From an uncultured Gammaproteobacteria bacterium (lineage in GTDB: Bacteria > Patescibacteriota > Microgenomatia > CAZETR01 > Amesbacteraceae), in the NCBI GenBank assembly GCA_964518565.1, contig CAZFGX010000001.1, positions 669,404-733,403 of the forward strand: a stretch of 64,000 nucleotides of DNA, written 5' to 3'. The translations under genes were made by a program, and so were the position numbers. Shown here one piece after another: positions 28,001 to 54,526 of this stretch (positions within the stretch are counted from its first letter, which is position 1; every line of letters starts with the position of its first letter). A model generated the notes under the pieces. That model made no database searches, was not told the origin of the DNA, and was given only the letters and a program-made list of their open reading frames with translations.

Positions 28001-29262
28001 CAGTAGACACCAACTCACCACTGGATCCCATTTCTGGCGCGGACGTAGCCGAATACTACCAAATGCCAAACGGCTATGATTCTATAAACATTGGTGACAT
28101 CGTCTCCTTGGGCTCTGAGCCAGGCAAGGCTGAAGTTGCAACAAAACCTCAAGACCGAAAAATGCTAGGTGTAGTTTCCGAAAAGCCTGGACTCACACTC
28201 GGCCAATCTGAAGGCCAAAACATGATGCCTATTGCTCTCACCGGCCGCGTACCGGTTCGTATTAGCTCTAAAAATGGCACCATTAAAATCGGCGACGCAA
28301 TCACCTCTTCAGATATACCAGGTGTAGGTATCAAGGCTACCCAACCAGGAAAAATTCTCGGAACTGCCATGGAAAACTTCGACTCAAATGACGAAGGCCG
28401 CATCATGGTAAACATCAATGTCGGATATTACCTAGGTGAAGAATCTGAACAACCCCTACTCGTCCAAAAAAATGAAATAAACATCACACCTTCTATTGAA
28501 TCTGACACATCAATGGCCACAGATAGCGCTGGATTAACAGCTGGGTCAGTCGGAGAATTTATCATTAACAAACCCTCAGTGTTCCAACAACTCTCTCAAT
28601 TCATGAATGACATAATAGTGAACGGCAAAGCGACGTTTAACAATTCAGTAGCCTTCTTGGGCAACACACTATTTAAAGGTAAAGCAACCTTTGAAAAAAC
28701 TGTAGAGTTTAATGAAGACGCCGCTGGTTATGCTGTAATCAAAGCCGGCCATCGTGCAGTGAATATTACCTATGCTACTGAGTATTCAAATAATCCATTA
28801 GTAAACACCTCTCTCGTCGTCACCAAAATTACTCCAGAAATCTACACTGATCGTGTATCTCGCGGCATCTGTAATGAGACGGCCGGCATGCAAGCCTGCC
28901 AAGACAATATGGTAAATGAGGTACTTGGAAACGATGTAAAATTTGCCATCGTCGACAGCAGTACCCAAGGATTCATGATTCTTCTCAACAAGCCAACTCA
29001 AGTAGACATGACCTTCTCATGGACAGCTACTGCAGTAACAAAAACAAAGGTAAGCACAAGTACAACCGATCCAGCTCTAGAATCAGCATTTAAAAATATC
29101 AGCGAGTCATCGTCTGACTCAGCTAGTTTAATCCAGGAGATAAACGAACAAATAGCTACAACATCAGCAATTCTAGGAAGTCAAATCAGTATAAATGACC
29201 AATTGTTAAACGAAAATTCAGCTACTTCTTCAGCCTCACCCTCAGCATCGACATCCCCATAG
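13063..29262 (+). CDS. giant (5399 aa) secreted/surface-anchored repeat protein, fibre/adhesin-like
   Basis: Single uninterrupted ORF with an N-terminal signal anchor. Thr/Ser/Gly/Asn-rich beta-type repeats and a non-repetitive C-terminal 1300 aa containing VGIGTDTPANALEV and a beta-rich terminal domain. All minus-strand ORFs in this interval are shadows. Confidence 0.85.
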   Translation: MNKRGISPIIILLVIGLATTVTFGTATLVRHYSNPFAKANLQLNLKNSPDVIDASKLAGAVLQSPVVGITQLESGKYTAFQIQDADIQNIDNTPTLSLSARLLSLSNDPISLSGPNKIDYIELKNHKTSNAKVVIPGIVQVKTKSGDIINVLLSQAKIRNGQIIDAFYGQVVDSAHLIAGVGEISGNLTYPAVEIGGQPANSGISSLVRQAMRVVPSLSLDSRPISISQTQGTVVLGATTDMLQSLNLDFSAPYDAVFDEKSGTWTLPGQSGVSISTIATDRQVAKAIEDKISSGDLVLPTATNGITEIKSANDKLTVTTNESLVTLRLSLVNSIDSDSIIDGSITNSDIYSGANIGDSKLDQIKSANKVAGSAIQLSTTGGLENNSGLSLLTSCSINQVLKWDGSDWICATQSGGGGSSIDIQENDSTITSAAAFLDFLGSDFTVTNSPSGEANVAIDYTNSAITRSNQNETISGTWTFSSTPTITNLPNSALANSGITVTAGTGLSGGGAVSLGGSVTLSSTLGTAIDSSEITNDTIVNADINSAAAIDFTKLASLTAGYILLGNSSNVVTATALSGDITIDSSGVTTIGADKVALGTDTTGNYVAGATTNGGLALTGTEAGTLGLITSCSDNQVLKYTAAGGWACANDTTGGGSGNSFETISTASGTSPVADSSTDTLSLTAGSGITIVGDASNDSIAIAATLGNTIDSSEITNDTIVNADINSAAAIDFSKLGALTAGNILLGNSSNVATSTAMSGDITIDSSGVTTIGADKVALATDTTGNYVATVTGNSQISVSGSGSENAGVSLSIAADSIGDSQLAFNTGQNLTTSSTPTFSALTLNGNLTLANAETLSNGTDGQITFGRNDAGTVTLTAADNDSTAALTILPGGAAGLTLGGSSTTAITITTDGTGDSEVVLPANSVGNSELVNSSITINSAGILSGGASVSLGGNITLTATEADTLNTVAGRGASTATALTLSSTSNAITAGTLTINGDTFTDLTGTGLTISGGALQTTLGTAIDSSEITDDTITASDLAATLTFADGDLLDLSNINNSSTSEGLKLPQATACTSATANGQICWDNDTFVLYVGNGTTASSISNPFGVSIDSSEITNDSIVNADINSSAAIDFSKLATLTAGNVLLGNSSNVATSTALSGDVTVDSSGVTTIGADKVALATDTTGNYVATVTGNSQISVSGSGSENAGVSLSIAADSIGDSQLAFNTGQNLTTASSPSFASQTLSNTTNQLVLGTTNTTTISSTAPSTSRTYTIPDFGSNDSFVGLAATQTLTNKTISGSSNTLSNIGNSSLTNSSITINTSGILTGGASVSLGGNITLTATEADTLATVTGRGASTSTTLSLAAFTASDTFTQTYTPAGTVASPRGVILTPTFGIDATDQTLAALYINPNTNSNSDSGDSLNGINIAAITASSANETAILIGSAGGGSTGWNNILAVNSSVIINGSGVLQSAALSGTYSNALTLSSTSNAITAGTVTVNSDAITDFTGTGLQMNSGSLETTLGTDITNSEINASAAIDFSKLATLTAGNVLLGNASNIATSTTLSGDITVDNSGVTTIGADKVALGTDTTGNYVSSATTNKGLTLSGTEGGSLGLQNCADNEILKYSTGTSTWSCASDATGGTINSFETITTTSGTSPVADSSTDTLTLTAGTGITVTGDSSTDTITLAATLGTAIDSSEITNDTIVNADINSAAAIDFSKLAALTAGNILLGNGSNVATSTTLSGDITIDSSGVTTIGANTVALATDTTGNYVATITGNSQISVSGSGSENAGVSLSIAADSIGDSQLAFDTGQNLTSTSTPTFGALTLNGSLTLANSETIANSTNSQFTFGRNDAGTVTLTAADNDATAALSILPGGAAALTLGGSSTTAVTLTTDNTGDAEVVLPANSIGNSELVNSSITINSAGILTGGASVSLGGNITLTATEADTLDAVAGRGASTSTALTLSSTSNAITAGTLTISGDAFTDLTGTGLTISGGALQTTLGTAIDSSEITDNTITASDLNATLTFADSDLLDLSSINNSSASEGLLLPQATACTSATANGQICWDNDTFVLYVGNGTTATSISNPFGASIDSSEITNDTIVNADINSAAAIDFSKLATLTAGNVLLGNASNIATSTTLSGDVTVDSSGVTTIGADKVALTTDTTGNYVASVTNGNGITGGNGGSEGAALTLAVDQTYAFTWTGLQTHTNTITDDGSQSIFNLTLGNDANTDTVSAIKVAATSAATGDADTIYGLDIANLASANATVAEQAIHIGSGWDNIFDINGTLISATEIGLLDGLSGTILTSGNYSSTLDSVYVNVGESPAAGDITGSFSGGLTIGSDSVALATDTTGNYVATVTGNSQISVSGSGSENAGVSLSVAADSIGDSQLAFDTGQNLTSTSTPTFGSLTLNGSLTLANSETIANSTNSQFTFGRNDAGTVTLTAADNDATAALSILPGGAAAFTLGGASTTAITLTTDSTGDSEVVLPANSIGNSELVNSSITINSAGILTGGASVSLGGNITLTATEADTLNSVAGRGASTATALTLSSTSNAITAGTLTINSDAFTDLTGTGLTISGGALQTTLGTAIDSSEITDDTITASDLNATLTFADGDLIDLSSINNSSTTEGLKLPQATACTSATANGQICWDNDTFVLYVGNGTTATSISNPFGASIDSSEITNDTIVNADINSAAAIDFSKLAALSSGNILVGSVGNVATSVAMSGDVTIDNAGATTIGADKVALTTDTTGNYVASVTNGTGITGGNGGSEGAALTLAVDQSTAFTWTGLQTHTNTITDDGSQSTFNLTLGNDANTDTISAIKVAATSAATGDIDTVYGLDIANLASANGTVLEQAIHIGTGWDNIFDLNGTLISATELGLLDGLSGTLLTSANYTSTLDSVYVNVGESPAAGDIAGSFSGGLTVGADSVALATDTTGNYVATITGDSQVSVSGSGSENAGVSISIAANSIADAQLAFNTGQHLTTTSTPTFGSLTLNGSLTLANSETIANGTDGQILFSRNDAGTVTINAADNDANADLVIRAGGTGALTFGNASNTSITLTTDSTGDAEVVLPASSVGNSELVNSSITINSSGILTGGASVSLGGNITLTATEADTLNSVAGRGASTATALTLSSTSNAITAGTITVNADAITDFTGTGITISGGALQTTLGTAIDSSEITDNTITASDLNATLTFADSDLIDLSAINNSSTTEGLLLPQATACTSATANGQICWDNDSFTLSIGNGTTTTSIGNPFGASIDSSEITNDTIVNADINSAAAIDFSKLAALSSGNILVGSVGNVATSVTMSGDITIDNTGATTIGADKVALTTDTTGNYVTSVTNGTGITGGNGGSEGAALTLAVDQTTAFTWTGLQTHTNTITDDGSQSIFNLTLGNDANTDTISAIKVAATSATTGDADTVYGLDIANLSSADGTVAENAIHIGTGWDNVFDLNGTLISSSELTLLDGVSGTLVTTTTNPTSADISGSFSAGFTVAANAVALATDTTGNYVATVAGDSQISVSGSGSENAGVSLSIAADSIGDSQLAFNTGQNLTTTSTPTFGSLTLNGSLTLANSETIANGTDGQILFSRNDAGTVTINAADDNANADLVVRAGGTGALTLGNSSNTAITLTTDSTGDGEIVLPANSIGNSELVNSAITINSAGILSGGASVSLGGNVTLTATEADTLNTVAGRGASTATALTLSSTSNAITAGTITVNSDGITDFTGTGLQMNSGSLEATLGTSIVSGEITDDTITASDLNATLTFADSDMIDLSSINGSSTTEGLKLPQNTSCASSTANGQICWDNDGFVLYIGNGTTTTAITGGGGNSFETITTTSGSSPVADSSTDTLTLTAGTGMTVTGDSSTDTITLATTLGTAIDSSEITNDSIVNADINSAAAIDFSKLATLSSGNILVGSVGNVATSVAMSGDVTIDNTGATTIGADKVALTTDTTGNYVQSITNGTGISGGNGGGEGSALTLAVDQTTAFTWTGLQTHTNTITDDGAQSTYNLTLGNDANTDTVSGVAINVTSTATGDADTLYGLNIANITAQAVVTETAINIGTGWEQAINAGGTLISLSELQLIDGGIALSELTDSGTLTAGTVDINGGAIDGVTIGGSSAGAGTFTTLTATGDVTMNDAGADNILIGAAADTLTLTSNSLSLTDDNWSISTSGALTTSGAINANGGITTSTSNTALAFTVNGSGDFTFTADSDSQVQISLDDSSTNTGLELLRLTRTTSSTAADSIGGYISFYIENDTSTAEAARILANLRDANVATTVGTDITMYVARDGSTGELIDGMTVYVDAANKWVCGNANKLGNDGYDCFGFQIGTSNIINFSFDGSNRFNVDYSSGSTQLALYSVNSGDDLLVKTLGDQAISFDQNNDGNNMVIDTDGQVGIGTDTPANALEVLSTTTPQFRVSYDTSNYTTFAVSSTGVLTIDYTGTAGGITLADFTGGGSGCSALETNSSGVLACGTDDTGGSSTMQGVYDNDVNGSDVTIAMNTTDGSIIFTEAAGTNHQITTTAAPTLDQLALTNTGFGTTTDGVDGLSIVFEQADDADATDTNAGLNVSVSGASGDLGDILSGISINTTAQTANNREIGLTIGTGFDEDIRFASASAIIRMQDGGTLSFMDGSYGQGATKDQPNARVIEYFSTANYGVFEAGGFVNIDGSYYQDNFSIPMTAVTADVTSRTNRFGDHGNWSFDEAGTGGGSTATNSTKYGCTLSQGGSGAGAGTNTSFGRLEFSPDLGTHTHTAADSACVAHLGIGTGTNTAGVLNAAYKYVQYFKVGFSSGFTNNNSANQAFVGAHNYTEAWGQNWSSIAATHGFIGFANLISTTTATDAQGGTQWNGFARVGNAISSVACGTTGNISTASNAWALMRIEARATNDVHFFIDSDVSNGIALTECGAGVSSNISTRNLNPAMNVVHQQNLSSAGNSWTMYVDLYAHVQDDPKPENGPIAFSDTVDTNSPLDPISGADVAEYYQMPNGYDSINIGDIVSLGSEPGKAEVATKPQDRKMLGVVSEKPGLTLGQSEGQNMMPIALTGRVPVRISSKNGTIKIGDAITSSDIPGVGIKATQPGKILGTAMENFDSNDEGRIMVNINVGYYLGEESEQPLLVQKNEINITPSIESDTSMATDSAGLTAGSVGEFIINKPSVFQQLSQFMNDIIVNGKATFNNSVAFLGNTLFKGKATFEKTVEFNEDAAGYAVIKAGHRAVNITYATEYSNNPLVNTSLVVTKITPEIYTDRVSRGICNETAGMQACQDNMVNEVLGNDVKFAIVDSSTQGFMILLNKPTQVDMTFSWTATAVTKTKVSTSTTDPALESAFKNISESSSDSASLIQEINEQIATTSAILGSQISINDQLLNENSATSSASPSASTSP
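14600..25200 (+). repeat. intragenic tandem repeats of about 1.2-1.8 kb (6-7 units, roughly 85-90% nt identity)
   Basis: The motif coding for IDSSEITNDTIVNADINSAAAIDF recurs near 14641, 15181, 16381, 18141, 19341, 21111, 22861 and 24731. TGTTGGGACAACGAC recurs at 16311, 19271, 21031, 22791 and 24521. Confidence 0.8.
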
Positions 29263-30880
29263 CATCTAATTCAGGTGCAGCCTCAAACATAAACTTACGA
29301 GTAACTTCAGTACATTTATCAGGGTAGCGATCACAAGTATAAGTCTGAAGCAGATAAACATCTTTTCCTTTAGCTAATTGTTCTTGAACAAATTCTTGGG
29401 CAGAAGTGTTGTATAAAAAAGATCCATAGTAAACAACAGTGTGTCCATGCAACAAAGACAAAGCGGTCATCGCATGTATGACAACCGCATCAGAAGAAAT
29501 ACGCGGTGTCACGTAATCCTCAATATATGTATGAACATCCCGAGGTCCCTTATCCACATACTCATAATAAGGAGATACAGAAATCATTCTTTTATATCGA
29601 AAAACAGTCGGCAAAAGCGACAAAGCCACCACAACACTTAAAAGTATAAAAAAACTCTTTCTCTGACGATGCACAAAATACGCTCTGAGTAGTGATGCAG
29701 AATACCAAACAGCTAAAATCGTCAAGGGAACGACTAAAATTAAAAAATATCTACCATAAGACCCAGAATACTCAACAGAAAAAAACTCCCCAGCAAAATA
29801 AAACGAATAAATTAAAAAATAAAATCCAAACCAAGCAACAAACGCCCACTTACGAACATCTTTTATGGTCAAGATGCCCAGCAATGAAAATACAGTAAGA
29901 ACCACCGGCCACTCAGGCCTTTTAAATAAAGACAAAATATTGGGTAATGTATTCCTAATAACATATCCCACACTAAATGCTTCTAAAGGAGTTGCGTCTC
30001 CACAACACCACGTTTGACCTAAAACAGATAAAGACACGATAGCTCGGAATCCAATCAAGCATCCACTAACCAGCGCGTAGCCTACATCCTTTTTAGTAAA
30101 AAGAGGCAAACCCAACTGTTTACGAATAGCAAAAATAGCCATTAGCTGAACTCCCAAAAATAAAAAGGCTTCCAAACGCACAAACAATAAAAGTAGGGTA
30201 GCCGAAAGCAAAAATAACCAACTCCCAAACGCTGGACGAGATCCATACCAAGCAGCTCCAATGAAAGCAAGTAAAGCAAAAAAAACAAAGTAAGAATCCA
30301 ATCCAATAGACAAACTCCAAAAAATAGGCACTGGTAATATAGCAAAAATTCCAGCAGCCACCAAGCCCATACTACGTGACCGTAAATACATAACTACAGC
30401 TATAAAAACAAAAATAATTTGGCTAGTGCTAAAAATTCTTGAACCAATAAATAGGTATTTTTCACTATAACCGAACACTTTAAATATCCAAGCATTTAAA
30501 GTCGGAACTGTGACTCGCGCAACCAAATCCGGATCGCCTGTGAGAAAAGTATCATTTGTCGCAACGTTTATCAGACGCTGAGTGCCGAATTTTGCAAAAG
30601 TTACAGCCCCGGAAAGATAACGATCCTCATCAAAATAAATTCTATGTTGATCTGGACTATAAAAACGTAATAGTCCTCCAACAACAACAATAACTCCAAG
30701 CAATACCCAAATCCAAACAGACTGAGATCGACAATATTTAAAAATTTTCCCTAGCTGAAACAACCCAATAAATACTAAAACAAAACCACATATACTTACA
30801 ACCCAAGGAGACACATCCGAGATAAGCCAACTTCCCATATTACTTATTATCACTATCTGCTTCATCAATTGCCACACCAA
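29222..30880 (-). CDS. GT-C fold membrane glycosyltransferase (PMT/ArnT-like, GT39/GT83 type)
   Basis: More than 10 TM helices. The first extracytoplasmic loop carries RFYSPDQHRIYFDEDRY (DE motif). The 3' end overlaps the 3' end of the giant gene by 41 nt, convergently. Confidence 0.7.
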   Translation of the reverse strand: MVWQLMKQIVIISNMGSWLISDVSPWVVSICGFVLVFIGLFQLGKIFKYCRSQSVWIWVLLGVIVVVGGLLRFYSPDQHRIYFDEDRYLSGAVTFAKFGTQRLINVATNDTFLTGDPDLVARVTVPTLNAWIFKVFGYSEKYLFIGSRIFSTSQIIFVFIAVVMYLRSRSMGLVAAGIFAILPVPIFWSLSIGLDSYFVFFALLAFIGAAWYGSRPAFGSWLFLLSATLLLLFVRLEAFLFLGVQLMAIFAIRKQLGLPLFTKKDVGYALVSGCLIGFRAIVSLSVLGQTWCCGDATPLEAFSVGYVIRNTLPNILSLFKRPEWPVVLTVFSLLGILTIKDVRKWAFVAWFGFYFLIYSFYFAGEFFSVEYSGSYGRYFLILVVPLTILAVWYSASLLRAYFVHRQRKSFFILLSVVVALSLLPTVFRYKRMISVSPYYEYVDKGPRDVHTYIEDYVTPRISSDAVVIHAMTALSLLHGHTVVYYGSFLYNTSAQEFVQEQLAKGKDVYLLQTYTCDRYPDKCTEVTRKFMFEAAPELDAMGMSMLRVRLKK

Positions 30881-32864
30881 AATCCTTAGCGACTTTCCTT
30901 ACCCGTTCCCGTTCATCAGGAGGAAGTGGATAAGAATTATATCTCTTAAAATAATGTTCAGCTTTCGGGATATCGTGCAAACATCCTGCATACAAAACAG
31001 CAAGATCCAATACTGCCTTTGACACATTTGTTTCCTTGCGCTGGTCTAAAGCCAAAATAAACCATTTCTCAGCTAATCGACACTCACCCTTAGCTGCTTG
31101 AAGCCGAGCCATTTCCACCATGACGGAAAACGACCAATTTGCATCAGGAATTTCCTTTAAAATCCGCTCTGCATCAGCATAACGCTTCTGAATCCGCAAA
31201 ACAGTCGCCAACTGACCTCGGGCTAAAACTGCGTGTGGATAAAGTTTTACAAATCTTTCCAGTTCCAAAATAGCTTCATTACTTTTTTCAGGATCAAATC
31301 CCAAACTACGTCCAAACGTTACAGCGGAAAACCCCCTTGTCCTCAAATAATCATTTGACACTGCCGTTTTTCGCACATATACAAAGCCATCTTCATCAAA
31401 ATAAACAAGAGACCAATCAGGACTCTTACTTGTCGTGGCTATAAGATAATCAGCACTCCGACTCAAAAGAAGTGCATTAATGTTCTGGTCACGATAAAAC
31501 CGTTCAAATGCACTATTCTGTTCAGGCACCAATAAAGAATAAACATTAATACTTTCATATTCATCAAAAAACAAATCCATTACATCCAAATTCGCTAACC
31601 GTGGATATTGCACATAAAACATGTAAGCCGAAATATCAGGAGTAGTCGCTATATTTCCTTCTATATGTAGACTTCGAAGAGATCTTTCAGACTCTTGAGG
31701 TAAACGAAGAAGCAAGGCTTTGGGCGGAAAAAAAATAGTAAATACAGTTATCCCAAAAGCCAACCCGCAACAAATCAAAAAGATTTTTTTATAAAAAACT
31801 TTCTCCCAAAAGAGGTTCGTTAATATCCACGCAAACGGTACAATAAGCAAAATCCCTGAAAAAGGGACAAAACGAACCCACCAATACCCACTTAACGAAA
31901 GAATAAGTAAAGGTAAAAATACAGTAACACTAACAAATCCATTCCAGCCTCTACGTACCACATAAATCAAAAAACCCACAACACTAAACAGGCTAAGTAA
32001 TAGGAAAATTACATAGGGGTATGTGGATATATTTTCTCGAATATAATTTGAATTTGCTGCAATCAATATTCCAGATAGCGAGCTGTAAACCTTATTCGCA
32101 CCCGACAAGAGCCGCAAGTTATCAATATTCAACCACAATCGAATACCGTGGGGATTTATCAGTGTCAACCCAATACTCACAACCGACCACACGATCAAAG
32201 GGCTGATTTGTTTATTTGGCCGCTTGAAATCCAATTTCCATATTCGACTACAAATTATATAAATAGATTCCAAAATACATATCAAAATTAACAACCCAAA
32301 ACCCAAAGCAATATACTCACCCGCCAACTGTGCCCACAACCACATCACAAGTGGAAAAAGAATAAAAAGTGTTTTTCCTTTCAAAACCCATCGCTGATAC
32401 ACAAAAAAGAGGATCAACAACATAGCGGGAACCAACACCAGTGGATGAAGTTTCCAAAAAATCCCCACAAAAACCGCACTAAACAACCACAGCACGAGTA
32501 AAAGAGGCTGAGGAATTTTTAGTTCTTTACCCAGAAAAACAATGAGCCAACCTATTCCAAACCACAATAAAATTAACACAGAAACAACACTCCATGAACC
32601 GGCCAAAAATAGTACATAACTTAAAAGATCAAATAGCCACGAGGTGGCAACGAGTTGGTTTTCAACAGGAATTACTTTAAAAGAGATATCTTGGTGATCA
32701 GGTATGTGTCTATTTTCCAAAATAAACCTTCCAATACCCACATGAATCCATGAATCAGGAGCCATAAATGTAGCCAAACTTCCCACACGAAAAAGAATAC
32801 ATACTGAAATCACACCCATAACCAAAAACAACCAAGACTGTTTAATATGCGTCCACATACTCAT
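30840..32864 (-). CDS. polytopic membrane protein with C-terminal TPR repeats (probable GT-C-type glycosyltransferase)
   Basis: About 12 TM helices followed by soluble TPR-like helices (RGQLATVLRIQKRYADAERILKEI ... AEKWFILALDQ). Confidence 0.6.
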   Translation of the reverse strand: MSMWTHIKQSWLFLVMGVISVCILFRVGSLATFMAPDSWIHVGIGRFILENRHIPDHQDISFKVIPVENQLVATSWLFDLLSYVLFLAGSWSVVSVLILLWFGIGWLIVFLGKELKIPQPLLLVLWLFSAVFVGIFWKLHPLVLVPAMLLILFFVYQRWVLKGKTLFILFPLVMWLWAQLAGEYIALGFGLLILICILESIYIICSRIWKLDFKRPNKQISPLIVWSVVSIGLTLINPHGIRLWLNIDNLRLLSGANKVYSSLSGILIAANSNYIRENISTYPYVIFLLLSLFSVVGFLIYVVRRGWNGFVSVTVFLPLLILSLSGYWWVRFVPFSGILLIVPFAWILTNLFWEKVFYKKIFLICCGLAFGITVFTIFFPPKALLLRLPQESERSLRSLHIEGNIATTPDISAYMFYVQYPRLANLDVMDLFFDEYESINVYSLLVPEQNSAFERFYRDQNINALLLSRSADYLIATTSKSPDWSLVYFDEDGFVYVRKTAVSNDYLRTRGFSAVTFGRSLGFDPEKSNEAILELERFVKLYPHAVLARGQLATVLRIQKRYADAERILKEIPDANWSFSVMVEMARLQAAKGECRLAEKWFILALDQRKETNVSKAVLDLAVLYAGCLHDIPKAEHYFKRYNSYPLPPDERERVRKVAKDFGVAIDEADSDNK

Positions 32865-33531
32865 ATACTAATCTAAAAATCTTTTCAAACAAATCATCAC
32901 TTTTAGCCATCATGCACAATACGTAGGGTCTCTTCGGTCGGTAGACCAAACGGCAATCTCCAACGTTATTTTTTGATTTGAATCGAAACATGGAAACATC
33001 TGCTTCAGACACGTGTTGAACATGAGATTTTAAAATTTTATTTGAATTTTCCAAATCTAAATAAGTAGATAAATACAAATTTCTCAAAACAGATGAAAAA
33101 TTCTTAGGACTCACGACCAAATCAGAATCGTTTTGACTCTGAGGAAAATCTAAATAATCAAAAATAGGCTGATGAGAATTAAGGCTTTCTAATTCATTCA
33201 AAAGCGGAATCTGAGTCGTAGCAAACATGGGCACCTTTTCGTTTACCCCCACATAGACACCTGAGGGTAAATATTCAAAATATATACCCATGGCAGTATT
33301 CGCCACAATTTGCTCCAGTTGAGTTCGTAAGGAGACAAAGTTTATAAGAACATCATTTGGCTGGTTTATAAATACTCTCGGTGATAAAAACCGATAGGAT
33401 AAAACACTTGCAGATTGGAGCGATGAAGCCTGAACGGGATTATAGACGCGACGAAATATGATAACAAATAAAACAATATTTGTGACACATGATGCACAGA
33501 AAAAAACCCAAAATGAATGTTTTTTTGTCAT
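32842..33531 (-). CDS. degenerate paralog of the class A beta-lactamase-fold proteins (lacks SxxK and SDN)
   Basis: Shares the YFEYLPSGV..G.NE, SPKN.SSVLR.LY.S.YLD and RPYVLCMM blocks with its two neighbours, but the catalytic motifs are missing. Confidence 0.55.
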   Translation of the reverse strand: MTKKHSFWVFFCASCVTNIVLFVIIFRRVYNPVQASSLQSASVLSYRFLSPRVFINQPNDVLINFVSLRTQLEQIVANTAMGIYFEYLPSGVYVGVNEKVPMFATTQIPLLNELESLNSHQPIFDYLDFPQSQNDSDLVVSPKNFSSVLRNLYLSTYLDLENSNKILKSHVQHVSEADVSMFRFKSKNNVGDCRLVYRPKRPYVLCMMAKSDDLFEKIFRLVYEYVDAY

Positions 33532-34469
33532 GGAGTAGGTAATTTTGACACATAGTCATATACAATAGTAGAAATCCCCTTCATAGTAACATCAGCTTCT
33601 GCCTCTGAAGAATTAATCATCATACACAACAAATACGGTCTTTGAGGTAAATAAAAAATTCCGCAGTCAGTAAATACATCACTTACTCCTGGCTTTCCCT
33701 TTCGTACACCTATTTTGTGAGCAACAGTCAAATCTTTTGGCACCCCAGCTACAATCATGTCGGAAAACTCACTACGACTAAGCAAATCCAGAACTGAATT
33801 GGAATTTGTTGGATTTATAAAAGACGAAAAATATAAGCTTCGCAAAATTGAAGAATAATTCTTAGGGGAAATCGTTGGCTCTTCACCAAAATCTTTAGGA
33901 ATTCCCAAATAATCATAAACATCCACTATTTGTTGCTGAGATACAAGTTTGAACAACAAATTTCTGGCAGTATTATCAGATTCTGCCAAAATTTTTTCCA
34001 AAGCGACAGACACGGTTAGTCGAGTACCTACCCCTTGTTTATACAACTCACCAAAATTCGGGTCTATGTCTTGTTCGGCTATTTCGATTTGATCCCCCGT
34101 ACCAATCCTTCCACTTTCGACTTGTTTCAAAACCGCCATGGCTAAAGGAATTTTCAACAACGACGCTTGAATAAATTCTTGATTTTCATGAATGCCAATA
34201 GACGTCCCACTGGGCAAATATTCAAAATACAATCCAACATTATCCTTTGTAGCCAGTATCTCGTTGAGAGCGGAACGTAAAACCACAAAATTAGTTAACA
34301 AGTGATATTGATGTCCTGCAAAAACACGCCGTGAGATATAAGGATACTGCTGGCTTAAATCTGAAGCCTGAGACACACCACTTTCCAAAGCTTTGGGTGA
34401 AAAATTAATTAAAAACGCCGCTAAAACAATATTTATACCAACAGAAACACAAAACAAAACATATTTCAT
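33528..34469 (-). CDS. class A beta-lactamase-fold serine hydrolase-like protein with signal anchor
   Basis: ASLLK (SxxK), ESDNTARNLL (SDN motif, close to the TEM sequence SDNTAANLL), an EEP...SP omega-loop-like segment, and HKIGV in the KTG position. Confidence 0.7.
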   Translation of the reverse strand: MKYVLFCVSVGINIVLAAFLINFSPKALESGVSQASDLSQQYPYISRRVFAGHQYHLLTNFVVLRSALNEILATKDNVGLYFEYLPSGTSIGIHENQEFIQASLLKIPLAMAVLKQVESGRIGTGDQIEIAEQDIDPNFGELYKQGVGTRLTVSVALEKILAESDNTARNLLFKLVSQQQIVDVYDYLGIPKDFGEEPTISPKNYSSILRSLYFSSFINPTNSNSVLDLLSRSEFSDMIVAGVPKDLTVAHKIGVRKGKPGVSDVFTDCGIFYLPQRPYLLCMMINSSEAEADVTMKGISTIVYDYVSKLPTP

Positions 34470-34471
34470 AA

Positions 34472-35401
34472 TTAGTAATCCCTAATATATGAATATACAT
34501 CCTGAGAAATACTCTTAAACACGGATCGAGCCACATCTTCACTAGACTTCATCATCAAACATAAAATGTATGGCCGCTTCGGCATATATACTATTCCACA
34601 ATCTGTATATACCGAATCTGGAGTATCAGGTGAATAAACACCAATTTTATGAGCCACTTTTACCTGTTCAGGTACACCAGCTCGCAATTTATCGGTAAAT
34701 TTACTTTGAGTCATTAAATCCAATATCTCATTTGAATCAGCCATATCTAAATAAGAAGATAGATACAAGCTTCTAAGTACCGAAGAATAATTTTTAGGTG
34801 TCACCACTACAGTATTTTGTTCTAATTCCTTAGGAATATCCAATGAATCAAACACATCTTCAATCGTTCCTGCAGGCAATCTATTAAACAACACACTTTT
34901 TGCCGTATTGTCAGACTCGGTAAGCACCAAACGAACCGCATCATTTACTGAAATTTTCGCCCCCACCCCCTGTTTCCAAAAATCCCCAAAATTATTATCT
35001 ATATTCTCAGGTTGTATGGTTAATATTTCATTCATATCCAGAGCATGGTTCTCTTTCTGTTTATATACACCCATAACCATAGGGACTTTCAAAAGCGACG
35101 CCAATACAAACTGTTTTTTTTCATTAATCCCTATAGATACACCCGAAGGCAAATATTCAAAATACACACCAAGTTCACCTGAAACAGTCGAGGAATTAAT
35201 TACTTCTCGTAATTCTGACCGCAATTTCACAAAATTTATAAGTATTTCATTCTTCTCACTCGCCATTATCCTCGGAGACAAAAATTGAAATTCCTGCTTA
35301 TCATAAACATGCAAATGACGAAATGGCCTACGGAGCAAAAAGTAGCCATTGATGATAAGGCTAACAATCAAAAACCCTAGCAAAAGCATCCTGCTTCGCA
35401 T
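34472..35401 (-). CDS. class A beta-lactamase-fold serine hydrolase-like protein with signal anchor (paralog)
   Basis: ASLLKVPMV (SxxK), ESDNTAKSVL (SDN) and HKIGV. Start taken at MRSRM (35401). The track ORF extends to 35428. Confidence 0.7.
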   Translation of the reverse strand: MRSRMLLLGFLIVSLIINGYFLLRRPFRHLHVYDKQEFQFLSPRIMASEKNEILINFVKLRSELREVINSSTVSGELGVYFEYLPSGVSIGINEKKQFVLASLLKVPMVMGVYKQKENHALDMNEILTIQPENIDNNFGDFWKQGVGAKISVNDAVRLVLTESDNTAKSVLFNRLPAGTIEDVFDSLDIPKELEQNTVVVTPKNYSSVLRSLYLSSYLDMADSNEILDLMTQSKFTDKLRAGVPEQVKVAHKIGVYSPDTPDSVYTDCGIVYMPKRPYILCLMMKSSEDVARSVFKSISQDVYSYIRDY

Positions 35402-35426
35402 GAATATATGCAGTATACTCCAACCC

Positions 35427-36350
35427 ATGCCAAAAAAAATTGTCCTTACTGGTAGTTCAGGTTTTTTAGGCCAGCACCTTTTCTCAAGCCTGAAAAGAGT
35501 CTACCCAAAAAGCATTATCAGTACTCCCAGTTCAAAAGATGCAGATCTAAGAATTCTTGAAAATTGTCTAAAAATTACTACTAAAGCGGATTTAGTAATC
35601 CACGCAGCAGCTAATGTTGGAGGTATTGGTAAAAATCAACAACTTCCCGGTACCTTGCTTTACGACAACGCCATCATGGGTCTGTATATGATCGAAGCAG
35701 CTAAATTAAATAAGGTGTCTAAAACAATAGTTATAGGTACGGTATGTGAATACCCCAAATATACCGACATTCCGTTCAAAGAATCAGATATATGGCTCGG
35801 ATATCCTGAATCAACCAACGCGCCCTACGGACTAGCCAAAAAACTTCTCCTTGTTCAAGGTCAAGCATATCATCAAGAATTTGGCATAAATATCATCCAC
35901 ATCCTACCCACAAATTTATATGGACCACACGACCACATAGACGCACAATATGCTCATGTAATCCCCGACCTAATTCGCAAATTTCATACCGCAAAGAACA
36001 CAAAACAACCCACTGTCACACTCTGGGGCGACGGCTCAGCCACCAGAGAATTCATGTATGTAGCAGATGCGGCTGATGCAATTGTACTAATTAGCAAAAA
36101 ATACGATTCCCAAGATCCAATAAACATTGGCTCAGGCGAAGAAATCTCTATTAAGGACCTAGCCGAACTAATAAAAAATAAAATAGGGTATACGGGTGAA
36201 ATAATTTGGGACACCAGCCGTCCAAACGGCCAACCTCGTCGGCTAATTGATCATTCTAAACTTGCGAGTCTGAAATTTAAACCCAAAACAAATATTTCCA
36301 CTGGACTAGATAAAACAATTAATTGGTATATCAAAAGCATTCAAACATGA
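35427..36350 (+). CDS. NAD(P)-dependent epimerase/reductase, GDP-L-fucose synthase (Fcl/WcaG)-like
   Basis: Rossmann start KKIVLTGSSGFLG, then AAANVGGI, GTVCEYPK, and NAPYGLAKK (YxxxK). The track's start at 35349 is a TTG. ATG 35427 fits the family's N-terminus. Confidence 0.75.
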   Translation: MPKKIVLTGSSGFLGQHLFSSLKRVYPKSIISTPSSKDADLRILENCLKITTKADLVIHAAANVGGIGKNQQLPGTLLYDNAIMGLYMIEAAKLNKVSKTIVIGTVCEYPKYTDIPFKESDIWLGYPESTNAPYGLAKKLLLVQGQAYHQEFGINIIHILPTNLYGPHDHIDAQYAHVIPDLIRKFHTAKNTKQPTVTLWGDGSATREFMYVADAADAIVLISKKYDSQDPINIGSGEEISIKDLAELIKNKIGYTGEIIWDTSRPNGQPRRLIDHSKLASLKFKPKTNISTGLDKTINWYIKSIQT

Positions 36351-37537
36351 ACAATCTGCAACGTTTCTATCTCAATCAGCATTCAAACTTAATCAACCAT
36401 CTAGTACCAGTTGGTGCCCATTCCAACTATCGAGTACTAAATGACAATATTGGCGAACAAACAGATATTTTAAAAACTCTAGAAAAAGCCCGAAGTGAAT
36501 TGTCTGCCAATGGTCGGATAGTCTTCACATCTATTAATTTCCTATGGCAACCCATAGTTACCCTAGCTGAGTACCTAAAAATCAAAAGGCCACAACCGCA
36601 ACAAAGCTGGCTATCACATACCGACATAAAAAATTTACTCTATCTTGCAAATTTTGAAGTTGTCACATCAGGCACCCACCTCCTATTGCCTATCTATATC
36701 CCTTATTTCAGTTCATTTATAAACCAATATATAGCTCGTCTTCCTATTATTAAACACCTTTGCCTTATTCAGTATTTCGTCGCCAAAAAAATACCCCAGA
36801 CAAACCCAGACAAAGACTATAGTGTATCTATTATCGTCCCAGCCAGAAACGAATCAGGAACTATAGAGACCATTATCAAAAACCTACCTTATCTAGGCAC
36901 CCATACAGAAATTATTTTTGTCGAAGGTCATTCAAAAGATGGTACCAACACAACTATTCGCCAAGCAATTACAAAATTCAAACATAAAGATATAAAACTA
37001 ATTACTCAAACCACTACATCTGGCAAAGGCGATGCCGTTAGAAAAGGTTTTAATCGAGCCACTGGTGACATACTTGTGATATTTGACGCAGATCTATCCA
37101 TGTCCGCAAATGAATTACCCATTTTTTACCACGTGCTTAGAACCCACAAAGCAGACTTTGTCATGGGTTCGAGACTTATTTACCCCATGGAAAACCAAGC
37201 CATGAGGTTTCTAAACATTTTAGGCAATAAAGCATTTAGTCTCATTTTTTCTTGGATTTTAAATCTACCAGTAAAAGATACGCTCTGTGGCACAAAGTGT
37301 TTATTTAAAAAGGACTATCAGTTAATAGCTAAAAATAGAGCATATTTTGGCGACTTTGATCCCTTCGGCGATTTTGACCTCATTCTTGGCGCCTCAAAAG
37401 CAAATCTAAAAATTATCGAAGTTCCTATTCATTACAAAGCAAGAGTCTATGGCAAAACCAACATTAGTCGTTTCCGCCACGGTTGGTTACTAGTACAAAT
37501 GACTTTATTTGCCGCCAAAAAGCTCAAATTCTTTTAA
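36347..37537 (+). CDS. GT2 glycosyltransferase, DPM1/GtrB-like polyprenyl-phosphate sugar synthase with N-terminal extension
   Basis: ATGA overlap with the upstream gene. VSIIVPARNESGTIETII, FVEGHSKDGT and GKGDAVRKGFNRATGDILVIFDADLS are GT2 signatures. Confidence 0.75.
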   Translation: MNNLQRFYLNQHSNLINHLVPVGAHSNYRVLNDNIGEQTDILKTLEKARSELSANGRIVFTSINFLWQPIVTLAEYLKIKRPQPQQSWLSHTDIKNLLYLANFEVVTSGTHLLLPIYIPYFSSFINQYIARLPIIKHLCLIQYFVAKKIPQTNPDKDYSVSIIVPARNESGTIETIIKNLPYLGTHTEIIFVEGHSKDGTNTTIRQAITKFKHKDIKLITQTTTSGKGDAVRKGFNRATGDILVIFDADLSMSANELPIFYHVLRTHKADFVMGSRLIYPMENQAMRFLNILGNKAFSLIFSWILNLPVKDTLCGTKCLFKKDYQLIAKNRAYFGDFDPFGDFDLILGASKANLKIIEVPIHYKARVYGKTNISRFRHGWLLVQMTLFAAKKLKFF

Positions 37538-38117
37538 AAACCAGCCTGGTAATAGGAAACCAGGTCGGATTTTTCTCCACCAAAGCTAACCCCACACTCC
37601 TGGCTTGATTCACAATCTTGGGCATATCCACTCTTTGATGAGGACCTTCAGGCATTTTCCAGCCCATTTTTTCCCAGACTATCAGTAACGGCTCCCAAAA
37701 CGGACCCACAAATGTCACTATCAGCCGACCATCAGCTTCTAAATGCGATTTAATCCAATCCAAGTCCCCTCTCAGATCCATTGTGTGCTCTACAACATCT
37801 GCCATAATCACTGTATTAAATTTGTCTTTTATCTCTGATTTTTTAGCCGTAAATCTGAAGTTTGGGAATTTTCTTGCCGCAAGTTTTACCATTTCACTAC
37901 TAATATCAAAACCTGTTCCCATTATCGGGTCTAAATAAGCCAATATCTGGCCAGTTCCGCATCCATAATCTAATACGTTTTTTTTATTACCAGCTTTTGA
38001 ACGAATTATCCTTTTAAGTACACTATAATAAATGCCATTTTTTCGCTTAAAACTGTCATACAAATGTGCGATTTCATCAAAATGTTGTTCTACGTCGTTT
38101 TTACAAGTTTTTACCAT
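37524..38117 (-). CDS. class I SAM-dependent methyltransferase
   Basis: VLDYGCGTGQILAYL (motif I) and ADVVEH (post-I acidic region). Confidence 0.8.
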   Translation of the reverse strand: MVKTCKNDVEQHFDEIAHLYDSFKRKNGIYYSVLKRIIRSKAGNKKNVLDYGCGTGQILAYLDPIMGTGFDISSEMVKLAARKFPNFRFTAKKSEIKDKFNTVIMADVVEHTMDLRGDLDWIKSHLEADGRLIVTFVGPFWEPLLIVWEKMGWKMPEGPHQRVDMPKIVNQARSVGLALVEKNPTWFPITRLVFKRI

Positions 38118-53377: not shown

Positions 53378-54160
<783 letters not shown>

Positions 54161-54488: not shown

Positions 54489-54526
54489 AAAGTTAGACAT
54501 ACTTATACATTTCGATTCTGCCAAAA

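What the first reader, a model, noticed from the sequence alone, without database searches (positions are those of the whole stretch)
29222..38117. Protein-glycosylation-type gene cluster convergent with, and overlapping the 3' end of, the giant gene
A GT2 DPM1/GtrB-like enzyme makes a polyprenyl-phosphate sugar. Two GT-C fold membrane transferases (one PMT/ArnT-like with a DE loop motif, one with TPR repeats) would transfer it on the outer face. A GDP-fucose-synthase-like epimerase and a SAM methyltransferase could supply or modify the sugar. The PMT-like gene overlaps the giant gene's stop by 41 nt. The giant proteins are extremely Ser/Thr-rich and full of N-x-S/T. The working hypothesis is that this cluster O-glycosylates the giant fibres, in the manner of a Gtr-like (GtrB plus GT-C) or PMT-like system.
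Basis: inference. Interest (0 to 1): 0.65.

Follow-up and report, generated by a model that had tools for sequence, protein, structure and literature searches.

The report
Glycosylation gene module tied to giant fibre
In a group of tiny uncultured bacteria (Microgenomates), a set of membrane sugar-transfer enzymes and cell-wall enzymes always sits tail-to-tail with the gene for a very large surface fibre protein, so it probably decorates or installs that fibre, although no experiment shows this yet.

Summary
Window 29222-38117 encodes a DPM1-like GT2, a GDP-fucose-synthase-like SDR, a SAM methyltransferase and two membrane proteins. High-confidence models of both membrane proteins have the GT-C fold. 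M1 is distantly PMT_2-like, with an invariant loop motif (FDEDRY in the window protein). M2 is a GT-C with a C-terminal TPR domain and matches no Pfam family. M1's 3' end overlaps the giant gene's stop by 41 nt.

Synteny is very strong. In about 20 non-redundant Microgenomates loci the order PBP-A-like, M2, M1 is followed by a convergent large gene (about 1,570 to 5,399 aa). These large proteins share a roughly 830-aa C-terminal region, and most end in a Ser/Thr/Pro-rich tail.

Dedicated O-glycosylation of the fibre by a lipid-linked sugar is the best reading (about 0.5) but remains inference. N-x-S/T sequons are not enriched. The PBP-A-like genes, and one lineage with M1 inside the dcw cluster, keep a cell-wall-glycosylation or anchoring rival alive (about 0.3).

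Closest known systems: streptococcal Pgf and GtrB/PgtC2. Verdict: new variant of a known kind.

The parts
13063..29262 (+). Giant secreted fibre protein, 5,399 aa. It has an N-terminal hydrophobic anchor or signal, five to six repeats of about 587 aa, a conserved C-terminal region and a low-complexity tail.
   Evidence: ORF. Ser+Thr is 27.5%. Repeat period is 587 aa. Orthologous C-terminal region found in relatives.
26542..29034 (+). Conserved C-terminal region of the fibre ('GiantC', aa 4494-5324). This is the only part shared by the large proteins of all related loci.
   Evidence: 41-51% identity to the giants of L002, L003 and L005, and 77% to L001. The HMM built from alignment A5 hits the convergent gene in every locus with enough flank. 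No hit to any solved structure by sequence.
27973..28212 (+). Segment matching Pfam Peptidase_G2, the intramolecular-chaperone autoproteolytic domain of phage fibre and appendage proteins.
   Evidence: PF11962, E = 5.6e-07, 29.6 bits against a cut-off of 25. Profile positions 32-101 of 228 are covered. Three of five homologues match.
29035..29259 (+). Low-complexity C-terminal tail rich in Ser, Thr, Ala and Pro (ends ...SATSSASPSASTSP). Its last codons overlap M1's 3' end.
   Evidence: In 11 of 15 distinct relatives at least half of the last 60 residues are Ser, Thr, Pro or Ala. Overlap read from sequence.
29222..30838 (-). M1: GT-C fold membrane glycosyltransferase, distantly PMT_2-like. Its first outer loop carries the motif RIYFDEDRYL.
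   Evidence: AF2 model pLDDT 90.8. Foldseek: AglB, PglB and STT3 at E about 1e-6; ArnT at TM-score 0.55. D70 and E71 are invariant in 44 of 44 sequences. PF13231 matches 18 of 44 homologues, but not the window protein itself.
30840..32864 (-). M2: GT-C fold membrane domain (aa 1-386), then an alpha/beta domain and TPR repeats on the outer face. The membrane domain matches no Pfam or NCBIfam family.
32842..33531 (-). PBP-A-like paralogue 3. It is degenerate: the segment carrying the SxxK and SDN motifs is deleted.
   Evidence: Alignment A3. The same degenerate copy is present in L001.
33528..34469 (-). PBP-A-like paralogue 2: a membrane-anchored serine DD-peptidase-like protein (Beta-lactamase2 family).
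   Evidence: PF13354, E = 2e-39. Best solved relative is Tll2115 (PBP-A, 2J9O), E = 1e-17. SxxK, SDN and H-K-I-G motifs are kept and no conserved E166 equivalent is present. One N-terminal TM helix.
34472..35428 (-). PBP-A-like paralogue 1.
   Evidence: PF13354, E = 6.5e-38. Motifs retained. Start codon uncertain.
35400..36350 (+). SDR of the GDP-L-fucose-synthase (3,5-epimerase/4-reductase) type. The start codon is uncertain; the ORF opens at 35349.
   Evidence: NCBIfam Fcl: 270 bits, below the equivalog cut-off of 500. Solved Fcl enzymes match at E = 1e-57. Present in 9 of 19 loci.
36323..37537 (+). GT2 of the polyprenyl-phosphate-sugar synthase type (DPM1, ArnC, AglJ-like). It has no TM helix. 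An N-terminal extension of about 160 aa is a remnant of half a methyltransferase.
   Evidence: PF00535. AglJ model: 97 bits, below its cut-off. 5MLZ Dol-P-Man synthase at E = 4.7e-11, then ArnC. DAD motif visible in the sequence. No TM helix. N-terminal extension versus the neighbouring methyltransferase: E = 6e-8. A GT2 lies in 14 of 19 loci.
37524..38117 (-). Class I SAM-dependent methyltransferase.
   Evidence: PF13489, E = 3e-15. Close homologues in only 3 of 19 loci.
38219..38962 (+). Single-pass membrane protein with a Ser/Thr/Pro/Ala-rich linker and a weakly LytR_C-like C-terminal domain. It is a frequent member of the module.
   Evidence: Family present in 12 of 19 loci, 19 copies in all. 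PF13399: E = 0.011, 17 bits, below the cut-off of 22.

Best explanation
The interval is the enzyme half of a conserved, Microgenomates-specific module. The other half is the convergently encoded large fibre protein.

Proposed mechanism:
1. On the cytoplasmic face, the DPM1-like GT2 loads a sugar onto a polyprenyl phosphate. The sugar varies between lineages. In the window it is probably a 6-deoxyhexose made with the Fcl-like SDR, possibly methylated.
2. The lipid-linked sugar is flipped across the membrane by an unidentified flippase.
3. On the outer face, the two GT-C enzymes use it as donor. M1 carries the invariant D-E-D loop. M2's TPR domain would hold the protein substrate.
4. The acceptor is most probably Ser/Thr of the fibre as it emerges from the Sec channel. 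Candidate sites include the fibre's disordered Ser/Thr/Pro tail.
5. The membrane-anchored PBP-A-like DD-peptidases and the LytR_C-like protein are proposed to open or adapt the peptidoglycan so the fibre can cross it or be held in it.

Shown: gene content, predicted folds, conserved motifs and synteny. Inferred: the donor, the acceptor, the order of steps and the role of the peptidases.
For: Folds:
- M1 is GT-C.
- M2 is GT-C.

Conserved motifs:
- The acidic motif in M1's first outer loop is invariant in 44 of 44 sequences.
- D37 in M2's equivalent loop is at least 90% conserved.

Sugar-loading enzyme:
- The GT2's closest solved relatives are Dol-P-Man synthase and ArnC.

Operon structure:
- The PBP-A-like, M2 and M1 genes overlap or abut.

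Synteny:
- The convergent GiantC gene is present in 18 of 19 non-redundant loci, and in L031 and L032, at only 35-66% M1 identity.
- The reverse search from GiantC finds M1-M2 in 3 of 4 loci.
- The fibres share only their C-terminal region of about 830 aa.

Substrate features:
- In 11 of 15 distinct fibres, at least half of the last 60 residues are Ser, Thr, Pro or Ala.
- The fibres are 18-31% Ser+Thr.

Variable sugar genes, as expected for surface glycans:
- Fcl-like SDR in the window and other loci.
- DegT aminotransferase plus SDR in L031.
- A C-methyltransferase in L005.

Support for M2 as a transferase:
- Remote M2-type proteins in Geomonas and Clostridium innocuum sit beside small DPM1-like GT2 genes. 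In C. innocuum the two genes overlap by 8 nt.

Experimental precedents:
- PgfS, PgfE, PgfM1 and PgfM2 modify the adhesins Cnm and WapA (PMC5856776).
- TPR-bearing GT-C enzymes that are protein O-mannosyltransferases: TMTC1-4 (PMC7801869) and TMEM260 (PMC10214176).
Against: - No result here shows sugar on the fibre.
- GT-C enzymes also modify lipids and wall polymers. ArnT gives M1's best TM-score.
- The conserved core contains peptidoglycan-type enzymes: PBP-A-like proteins in 17 of 19 loci.
- An M1 orthologue nested within the family lies alone between mraY and ftsW in one lineage.
- No flippase gene lies in the cluster.
- The sugar pathway in the cluster is incomplete. No 4,6-dehydratase gene is present.
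- The Peptidase_G2-like segment suggests that the last 350 or so residues, tail included, may be cleaved off after folding. That would weaken the tail as the functional target.
- Four of the 15 tails have less than half Ser, Thr, Pro or Ala in their last 60 residues.
Confidence: 0.5

Rival explanations
1. Cell-wall glycosylation or anchoring module. GT2, M1 and M2 glycosylate peptidoglycan, lipid II or a secondary wall polymer rather than the fibre. The PBP-A-like and LytR_C-like proteins act on the same wall. The fibre's conserved C-terminal region binds to, or is anchored on, the modified wall. This would resemble S-layer proteins and their modified wall polysaccharide, or the mycobacterial GT-C arabinosyltransferases working with LCP ligases.
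For: - PBP-A-like DD-peptidase homologues are in the core: 17 of 19 loci, with catalytic motifs kept. PBP-A itself is a peptidoglycan DD-peptidase (PMC11189452).
- A LytR_C-like protein is present in 12 of 19 loci.
- M1 lies between mraY and ftsW in L012 and L029.
- L031 has an Arn-like gene set: DegT, SDR, GT2 and GT-C.
- M1's structural matches include ArnT, Emb and Aft enzymes.
- The L002 fibre carries a Peptidase_M23 domain.
Against: - This reading does not explain why the strict partner is the fibre's 3' end rather than wall-synthesis genes.
- It does not explain M2's TPR domain, which is typical of protein-substrate GT-C enzymes.
- The dcw location is a derived relocation in a single lineage. 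Its sister, P0007, has the standard module.
- In streptococci the substrates of the analogous system include cell-wall and division proteins, so a dcw context is also compatible with protein glycosylation (bioRxiv 10.1101/2024.05.05.592596).
Confidence: 0.3
2. General surface O-glycosylation system. The enzymes glycosylate many secreted proteins that have Ser/Thr-rich linkers. The fibre is only one substrate, and the gene linkage reflects co-expression rather than dedication.
For: - The streptococcal GtrB/PgtC2 and Pgf systems act on many proteins (bioRxiv 10.1101/2024.05.05.592596).
- The LytR_C-like neighbours also carry short Ser/Thr/Pro/Ala linkers.
- The second giant protein in the window (54497 onward) is 29.6% Ser+Thr.
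Against: Tail-to-tail linkage to one particular conserved protein region survives across roughly 35-66% sequence divergence. That is unusual for a general system.
Confidence: 0.12
3. N-glycosylation by an oligosaccharyltransferase. On this reading M1 or M2 is an AglB/PglB-type OST acting on the fibre's N-x-S/T sequons.
Against: - No WWDYG-type motif occurs in any of 44 M1 or 41 M2 sequences.
- Sequons are at the level expected from composition: 130 against 113 expected, and 81 against 85 in the second giant.
- The cluster has a polyprenyl-monophosphate-sugar type GT2 and no initiating phosphoglycosyltransferase.
Confidence: 0.03

Closest known systems
Streptococcus mutans Pgf system: PgfS (GT2), PgfE (epimerase), PgfM1 and PgfM2 (GT-C), acting on the adhesins Cnm and WapA (PMC5856776; bioRxiv 10.1101/2024.05.05.592596)
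   Same: - Same parts list: a GT2, a nucleotide-sugar SDR/epimerase and two different GT-C membrane proteins.
- The catalytic loops face outward.
- In both, the enzyme genes accompany a Ser/Thr-rich surface protein that is their substrate (Pgf) or presumed substrate (here).
   Different: - No orthology. The PgfS model scores 30.7 bits against a cut-off of 500.
- M2 carries a TPR domain and belongs to a family no library models.
- The sugar genes differ (GDP-fucose-synthase-like).
- The CPR module also has PBP-A-like DD-peptidases and a LytR_C-like protein as conserved members.
- The partner is a fibre of 1,570 to 5,399 aa with a phage-fibre-type Peptidase_G2 segment.
Three-component Gtr-type glycosylation: GtrA flippase, GtrB GT2 and GtrC/YfhO GT-C. 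Examples are CsbB/YfhO and GtrB/PgtC2.
   Same: The logic is the same. A polyprenyl-phosphate-sugar is made inside the cell and then used by a GT-C enzyme outside.
   Different: - No GtrA-like gene lies in the cluster.
- The GT2 lacks GtrB's C-terminal TM helices.
- There are two GT-C enzymes rather than one.
Protein O-mannosyltransferases of the GT-C/PMT clan: PMT (GT39) and the TPR-bearing TMTC1-4 and TMEM260 (PMC7801869, PMC10214176)
   Same: - M1 has the acidic D-E motif in its first loop, and its homologues hit PMT_2.
- M2 has the architecture of a GT-C membrane domain followed by lumenal or outer TPR repeats, as in the protein-specific TMTC and TMEM260 enzymes.
   Different: - M1 has no MIR domains and essentially no PF02366 match.
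- M2's membrane domain has no detectable sequence relation to any modelled GT-C family or to M1.
PBP-A of Thermosynechococcus elongatus (Tll2115), a DD-peptidase with the class A beta-lactamase fold (PMC11189452)
   Same: It is the best solved relative of the two intact paralogues. SxxK, SDN and K-x-G motifs are present, and the beta-lactamase Glu166 is absent.
   Different: - The CPR proteins are anchored by an N-terminal TM helix.
- They occur in one to three copies, one of them degenerate in the window.
- They are locked into an operon with two GT-C genes.

Membership tests
GT-C glycosyltransferase superfamily (M1) | Multi-pass membrane fold shared by STT3, PglB, ArnT, PMT, ALG and Emb enzymes | tested here: met
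   AF2 model pLDDT 90.8. The top 39 Foldseek PDB hits are all GT-C enzymes or the GT-C-like PIG-U subunit.
GT-C glycosyltransferase superfamily (M1) | Conserved acidic residue or residues in the first extracytoplasmic loop | tested here: met
   D70 and E71 are invariant in 44 of 44 sequences and D72 in 43 of 44. The outward orientation is inferred from the positive-inside rule only.
GT-C glycosyltransferase superfamily (M2) | GT-C membrane fold | tested here: met
GT-C glycosyltransferase superfamily (M1 and M2) | Use of a polyprenyl-phosphate-linked sugar donor | not testable with these tools
   Inferred from the adjacent DPM1-like GT2. Remote M2 relatives are also paired with small GT2 genes.
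PMT (GT39) protein O-mannosyltransferase | Match to PF02366 and MIR domains in loop 5 | tested here: not met
   PF02366 matches 1 of 44 homologues, at E = 0.007. No MIR domain was reported.
PMT_2 (PF13231; ArnT/GT83-like) | Match to the family profile | tested here: inconclusive
   The window protein has no hit. Eighteen of 44 homologues match, best E = 3.5e-10.
STT3/AglB/PglB oligosaccharyltransferase (GT66) | WWDYG motif in the C-terminal domain | tested here: not met
   Found in 0 of 44 M1 and 0 of 41 M2 sequences.
Polyprenyl-phosphate-sugar synthase GT2 (DPM1, GtrB, ArnC, AglJ type) | GT2 catalytic domain with a DxD motif, closest to enzymes of this class | tested here: met
   PF00535, E = 2e-22. 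5MLZ Dol-P-Man synthase at E = 4.7e-11, then ArnC. DAD motif visible in the sequence.
Polyprenyl-phosphate-sugar synthase GT2 (DPM1, GtrB, ArnC, AglJ type) | Equivalog-level score to a named enzyme; C-terminal TM helices as in GtrB | tested here: not met
   AglJ scores 97.5 bits against a cut-off of 325, and ArnC 33 against 529. No TM segment is predicted.
Gtr-type three-component system | GtrA-family flippase gene encoded with the GT2 and GT-C genes | tested here: not met
   No unassigned small multi-TM ORF lies between 29.2 and 41.3 kb. A flippase may be encoded elsewhere in the genome.
Pgf-type protein glycosylation machinery | GT2, epimerase and two GT-C genes linked to a Ser/Thr-rich surface protein gene | tested here: met
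   Gene content. Linkage.
Pgf-type protein glycosylation machinery | Orthology to PgfS, PgfM1 and PgfM2; demonstrated glycosylation of the neighbouring protein | tested here: not met
   PgfS model scores 30.7 bits against a cut-off of 500. M1 and M2 are not related to each other. Their relation to PgfM1 and PgfM2 was not tested directly. The modification itself cannot be tested here.
GDP-L-fucose synthase (Fcl) | Equivalog-level match | tested here: inconclusive
   NCBIfam: 270 bits against a cut-off of 500. Best solved relatives are Fcl enzymes at E = 1e-57. No GDP-mannose 4,6-dehydratase gene lies in the cluster.
Class A beta-lactamase | Family cut-off score and the deacylating Glu166 | tested here: not met
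   bla_class_A scores 91 and 88 bits against a cut-off of 200. No conserved Glu at the omega-loop position. The proteins are closest to the DD-peptidase PBP-A.
Peptidase_G2 intramolecular-chaperone domain (in the fibre) | Pfam gathering score | tested here: met
   29.6 bits against a cut-off of 25, E = 5.6e-07, but only profile positions 32-101 of 228 are covered. Autocleavage cannot be tested here.

The most novel reading that the evidence does not exclude
The module is a dedicated fibre-installation machine not described before. The two unrelated GT-C enzymes glycosylate the fibre's C-terminal region as it leaves the Sec channel. The PBP-A-like acyl-serine enzymes do more than trim peptidoglycan: they open the wall for the fibre or covalently couple the fibre, or its glycan, to the wall. 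That would be a sortase-independent anchoring route in CPR bacteria. It may be coordinated with trimerisation and self-cleavage at the Peptidase_G2-like segment. As a corollary, M2 would found a new family of protein-specific GT-C enzymes paired with DPM1-like GT2 genes in several phyla.
Probability: 0.08. Interest if true: 0.85.

Novelty: new variant of a known kind. Interest (0 to 1): 0.55.

Why it matters
CPR bacteria are thought to live attached to host cells, and very large surface proteins are candidate attachment organs. How these proteins are matured and mounted is unknown.

This work defines a compact gene set conserved in every related locus examined: the fibre's C-terminal region, two GT-C enzymes, PBP-A-like peptidases and a lipid-sugar synthase. 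That set gives concrete, testable handles:
- catalytic residues to mutate;
- a tail to use as a reporter;
- a TPR domain for binding studies.

It also identifies a GT-C family with TPR repeats (M2) that matches no Pfam or NCBIfam model and no solved structure by sequence. Distant relatives sit beside small DPM1-like GT2 genes in Geomonas and Clostridium.

If the glycosylation reading is right, the streptococcal and actinobacterial mode of outer-face O-glycosylation extends to the CPR.

Tried and rejected
Searches that returned nothing:
- Direct Pfam, NCBIfam and PDB-sequence searches of M1 and of M2's membrane domain. Only TPR families matched.
- Profile-profile comparison of M2 with M1 found no relation. 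The best result was a 7.8%-probability alignment of the two first-loop motifs.
- The word-indexed homologue search for M2 found only two close relatives. The exhaustive HMMER search was needed.
- PHROGs gave no hit for the fibre.
- The fibre's C-terminal profile hit no solved structure by sequence.
- Tandem Repeats Finder at the DNA level found no repeats in the giant gene. The 587-aa repeats appeared only from k-mer spacing in the protein.
- Promoter and terminator scans were at background level for promoters and uninformative for terminators.
- Literature searches for CPR giant genes together with glycosylation found nothing relevant.

Readings rejected:
- Antibiotic-resistance beta-lactamases: scores are far below the family cut-offs and Glu166 is missing.
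- N-glycosylation by an OST: no WWDYG motif and no sequon excess.
- The 41-nt overlap as a conserved feature: it recurs only in the closest relative, L001. Other loci have gaps of 2 nt to 5 kb.

Full report
**Setting.** The window is a chromosomal stretch of a CPR bacterium of the Microgenomates group.
- Housekeeping genes surround the finding: ribosomal L1, L10 and L7/L12, MreB, DprA, ArgRS and the F-ATPase.
- Homologues of the cluster's proteins come from Levyibacteria, Gottesmanbacteria and Roizmanbacteria MAGs.
- M2 is 100% identical to a protein on a 1.0-Mb NCBI contig.

**The observation.**
- Minus strand, running towards the giant gene: PBP-A-like 1 (34472-35428), PBP-A-like 2 (33528-34469), PBP-A-like 3 (32842-33531), M2 (30840-32864) and M1 (29222-30880).
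- M1's real start is probably the ATG at 30838, giving 538 aa. These genes overlap or abut, as in an operon.
- Plus strand, divergent from these: an SDR (ORF from 35349, ending 36350) and a GT2 (36323-37537).
- Further along: a convergent methyltransferase (37524-38117) and a single-pass membrane protein (38219-38962).
- M1's stop codon (29222-29224) lies 41 nt inside the 3' end of the 5,399-aa giant ORF (13063-29262).

**Family assignments.**
- *GT2.* It carries PF00535. Its best solved relatives are Pyrococcus Dol-P-Man synthase (5MLZ, E = 4.7e-11) and ArnC. It has a DAD motif and no TM helix. It is therefore a polyprenyl-phosphate-sugar-synthase-type enzyme at family level, but it reaches no equivalog cut-off. 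Its first 160 residues are a remnant of the C-terminal half of a methyltransferase like its neighbour.
- *SDR.* It is closest to GDP-L-fucose synthases: E = 1e-57 to solved enzymes, and 270 bits against an equivalog cut-off of 500.
- *M1.* It has no Pfam hit itself, but 18 of 44 homologues match PMT_2. An AlphaFold model built on 44 sequences (pLDDT 90.8) matches only GT-C enzymes, plus the GT-C-like PIG-U subunit, in its top 39 PDB hits. These include AglB, PglB, STT3, ArnT (TM-score 0.55), Pmt4, ALG9 and Emb/Aft. The loop motif RIYFDEDRYL has D70 and E71 invariant.
- *M2.* It has about ten TM helices (aa 1-386), then an alpha/beta domain and TPR repeats. Sequence methods found nothing for the membrane part. 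It is also unrelated to M1 at the profile level.
- Neither protein has the WWDYG motif of oligosaccharyltransferases.

The three genes at 32842-35428 belong to Pfam Beta-lactamase2.
- Two of them keep the SxxK, SDN and H-K-I-G motifs but have no conserved Glu166 equivalent.
- They score far below the class A beta-lactamase cut-off (about 90 bits against 200).
- They are closest to Tll2115/PBP-A, a cyanobacterial DD-peptidase (PMC11189452).
- Each has an N-terminal membrane anchor.
- The third copy has lost the active-site segment, and the same is true in the nearest relative, L001.

**Synteny.** I collected M1-bearing loci in three ways: exact look-ups of homologues, a scan of one genome per species, and a scan of metagenome contigs started from the fibre's C-terminal profile. 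I annotated them with HMMs built here.
- Counts over the 19 non-redundant loci:

| Component | Loci with it (of 19) |
|---|---|
| M1 | 19 |
| M2 | 19 |
| Convergent large gene | 18 |
| PBP-A-like | 17 |
| GT2 | 14 |
| LytR_C-like family | 12 |
| Fcl-like SDR | 9 |

- The one locus without the large gene ends 276 nt after M1.
- L031, L032 and the fragment L013 add three more positive cases.
- M1 identity across these loci is only 35-66%.
- The gap between M1 and the large gene ranges from an overlap of 41 nt (the window and L001) to about 5 kb. The larger gaps are filled by an extra TPR protein and a sugar C-methyltransferase.
- Starting from the fibre instead, 3 of 4 loci carry M1-M2.

**The large proteins.**
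- They range from about 1,570 to 5,399 aa and are 18-31% Ser+Thr.
- They share only a C-terminal region of about 830 aa (window aa 4494-5324; 41-51% identity to more distant relatives). Their N-terminal parts diverge.
- This shared region contains a segment that passes Pfam's cut-off for Peptidase_G2, the self-cleaving intramolecular-chaperone domain of phage fibre and appendage proteins.
- After the last folded domain comes a low-complexity tail. In 11 of 15 distinct sequences, at least half of its last 60 residues are Ser, Thr, Pro or Ala.
- The window protein also has five to six repeats of 587 aa.
- N-x-S/T sequons are not enriched: 130 against 113 expected.

**Interpretation.** The parts list and the direction of the catalytic loops fit outer-face glycosylation from a polyprenyl-phosphate sugar.
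- This mechanism is established experimentally for GtrB/PgtC2 and for PgfS/PgfM1 in streptococci. There it targets Ser/Thr-rich disordered regions next to folded domains (bioRxiv 10.1101/2024.05.05.592596).
- In S. mutans the machinery comprises a GT2, an epimerase and two GT-C proteins, and it modifies the adhesins Cnm and WapA (PMC5856776).
- TPR-bearing GT-C enzymes are known protein-specific O-mannosyltransferases: TMTC1-4 (PMC7801869) and TMEM260 (PMC10214176).
- Distant relatives of M2's membrane domain sit next to small DPM1-like GT2 genes in Geomonas and in Clostridium innocuum. In C. innocuum the genes overlap by 8 nt. This supports M2 being a transferase in its own right.
- The tight tail-to-tail linkage to one conserved protein region makes the fibre the most likely acceptor.
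- A membrane enzyme could reach sites along a 5,399-aa chain only as the chain emerges from the Sec channel. This last point is my inference.

**Why confidence stops at about 0.5.**
- Nothing here shows a glycan on the fibre.
- GT-C enzymes also modify lipids and wall polymers.
- The conserved presence of peptidoglycan-type DD-peptidase homologues and of a LytR_C-like protein points to the wall.
- In one lineage (L012, L029) an M1 orthologue lies alone between mraY and ftsW in the dcw cluster.
- That orthologue is nested inside the family. Its sister P0007 has the standard module, so the dcw position is a secondary relocation.
- The dcw position is nonetheless compatible with a wall-directed activity. 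It is equally compatible with glycosylation of wall-synthesis proteins, as seen in streptococci.
- If the Peptidase_G2-like segment really self-cleaves, the tail would leave with the released fragment.
- No flippase gene and no 4,6-dehydratase gene lie in the cluster.

**Novelty and score.** The mechanism class is known. The following features are new:
- a GT2 plus two unrelated GT-C enzymes locked to PBP-A-like peptidases and to the 3' end of a large fibre gene;
- restriction of the close M1 and M2 families to the Microgenomates-type genomes sampled here;
- M2's membrane family, which no profile library models.

I rate it a new variant of a known kind, with interest 0.55.

Noticed in passing
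window 54497-64000 (+), running off the window end: A second giant ORF of at least 3,157 aa, 29.6% Ser+Thr. It begins with an HTH_17-type DNA-binding motif, then a linker of about 60 aa, one TM helix and the fibre-like repeats. It therefore looks like a membrane-tethered DNA-binding domain joined to a giant extracellular part. The L026 GiantC fibre starts with the same kind of HTH.
   Followed up: partly
window 11235-13070 (+): A 611-aa protein with HTH_17 and dCache domains overlaps the start of the first giant gene by 8 nt. L002 has a 92-aa HTH_17 gene at the 5' end of its giant gene. An HTH_17 domain thus recurs at the 5' side of these fibre genes, either fused or adjacent.
   Followed up: partly
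window 53378-54157 (-): A 259-aa protein, just upstream of the ATP synthase genes, with an N-terminal hydrophobic segment, a domain shared with the fibre's C-terminal region (HMM E = 3e-17; motif ...[30 protein letters not shown]) and hydrophobic C-terminal segments.
   Followed up: no
window 36323-36820 (+): The GT2 carries an N-terminal extension of about 160 aa that resembles the C-terminal half of the neighbouring SAM methyltransferase (BLASTP E = 6e-8) and lacks the SAM-binding half. L001 and L032 also have long GT2 proteins. Most relatives have a GT2 of about 250 aa.
   Followed up: partly
L012 9886-11361; L029 10001-11476: A 491-aa M1 orthologue without the first N-terminal helix sits between mraY and ftsW in a complete dcw cluster (mraZ-mraW-ftsI-mraY-M1-ftsW-murG-ftsQ-ftsA-ftsZ). 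Neither M2 nor the fibre gene is nearby.
   Followed up: partly
L033 8001-11816 (Geomonas); L034 7304-9449 (Clostridium innocuum); L035 6001-10445 (Omnitrophota): Distant relatives of M2's membrane domain share the motifs DxDxWxHL, RPE and WxNxHG. They sit beside small DPM1-like GT2 genes in Geomonas (next to Tad-pilus genes) and in C. innocuum. In an Omnitrophota MAG they occur as tandem paralogues without a GT2. No Pfam or NCBIfam model covers this membrane domain.
   Followed up: partly
L002 9221-15412 (-): The Levyibacteriota fibre (2,063 aa) carries a Peptidase_M23 domain after the conserved region. M23 enzymes cleave peptidoglycan, which suggests some of these fibres attack a cell wall.
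   Followed up: no
L031 4188-7016: In this relative the sugar genes next to the core are a DegT-type aminotransferase, an SDR and a GT2. This resembles the ArnB/ArnA/ArnC set rather than the Fcl-like set, so the sugar apparently differs between lineages.
   Followed up: no
window 1-64000: GC skew is negative in every 2-kb bin, whichever strand is coding. The two giant genes have about 49% GC, against about 38% for the glycosylation cluster and 37-44% for the other neighbouring genes.
   Followed up: no
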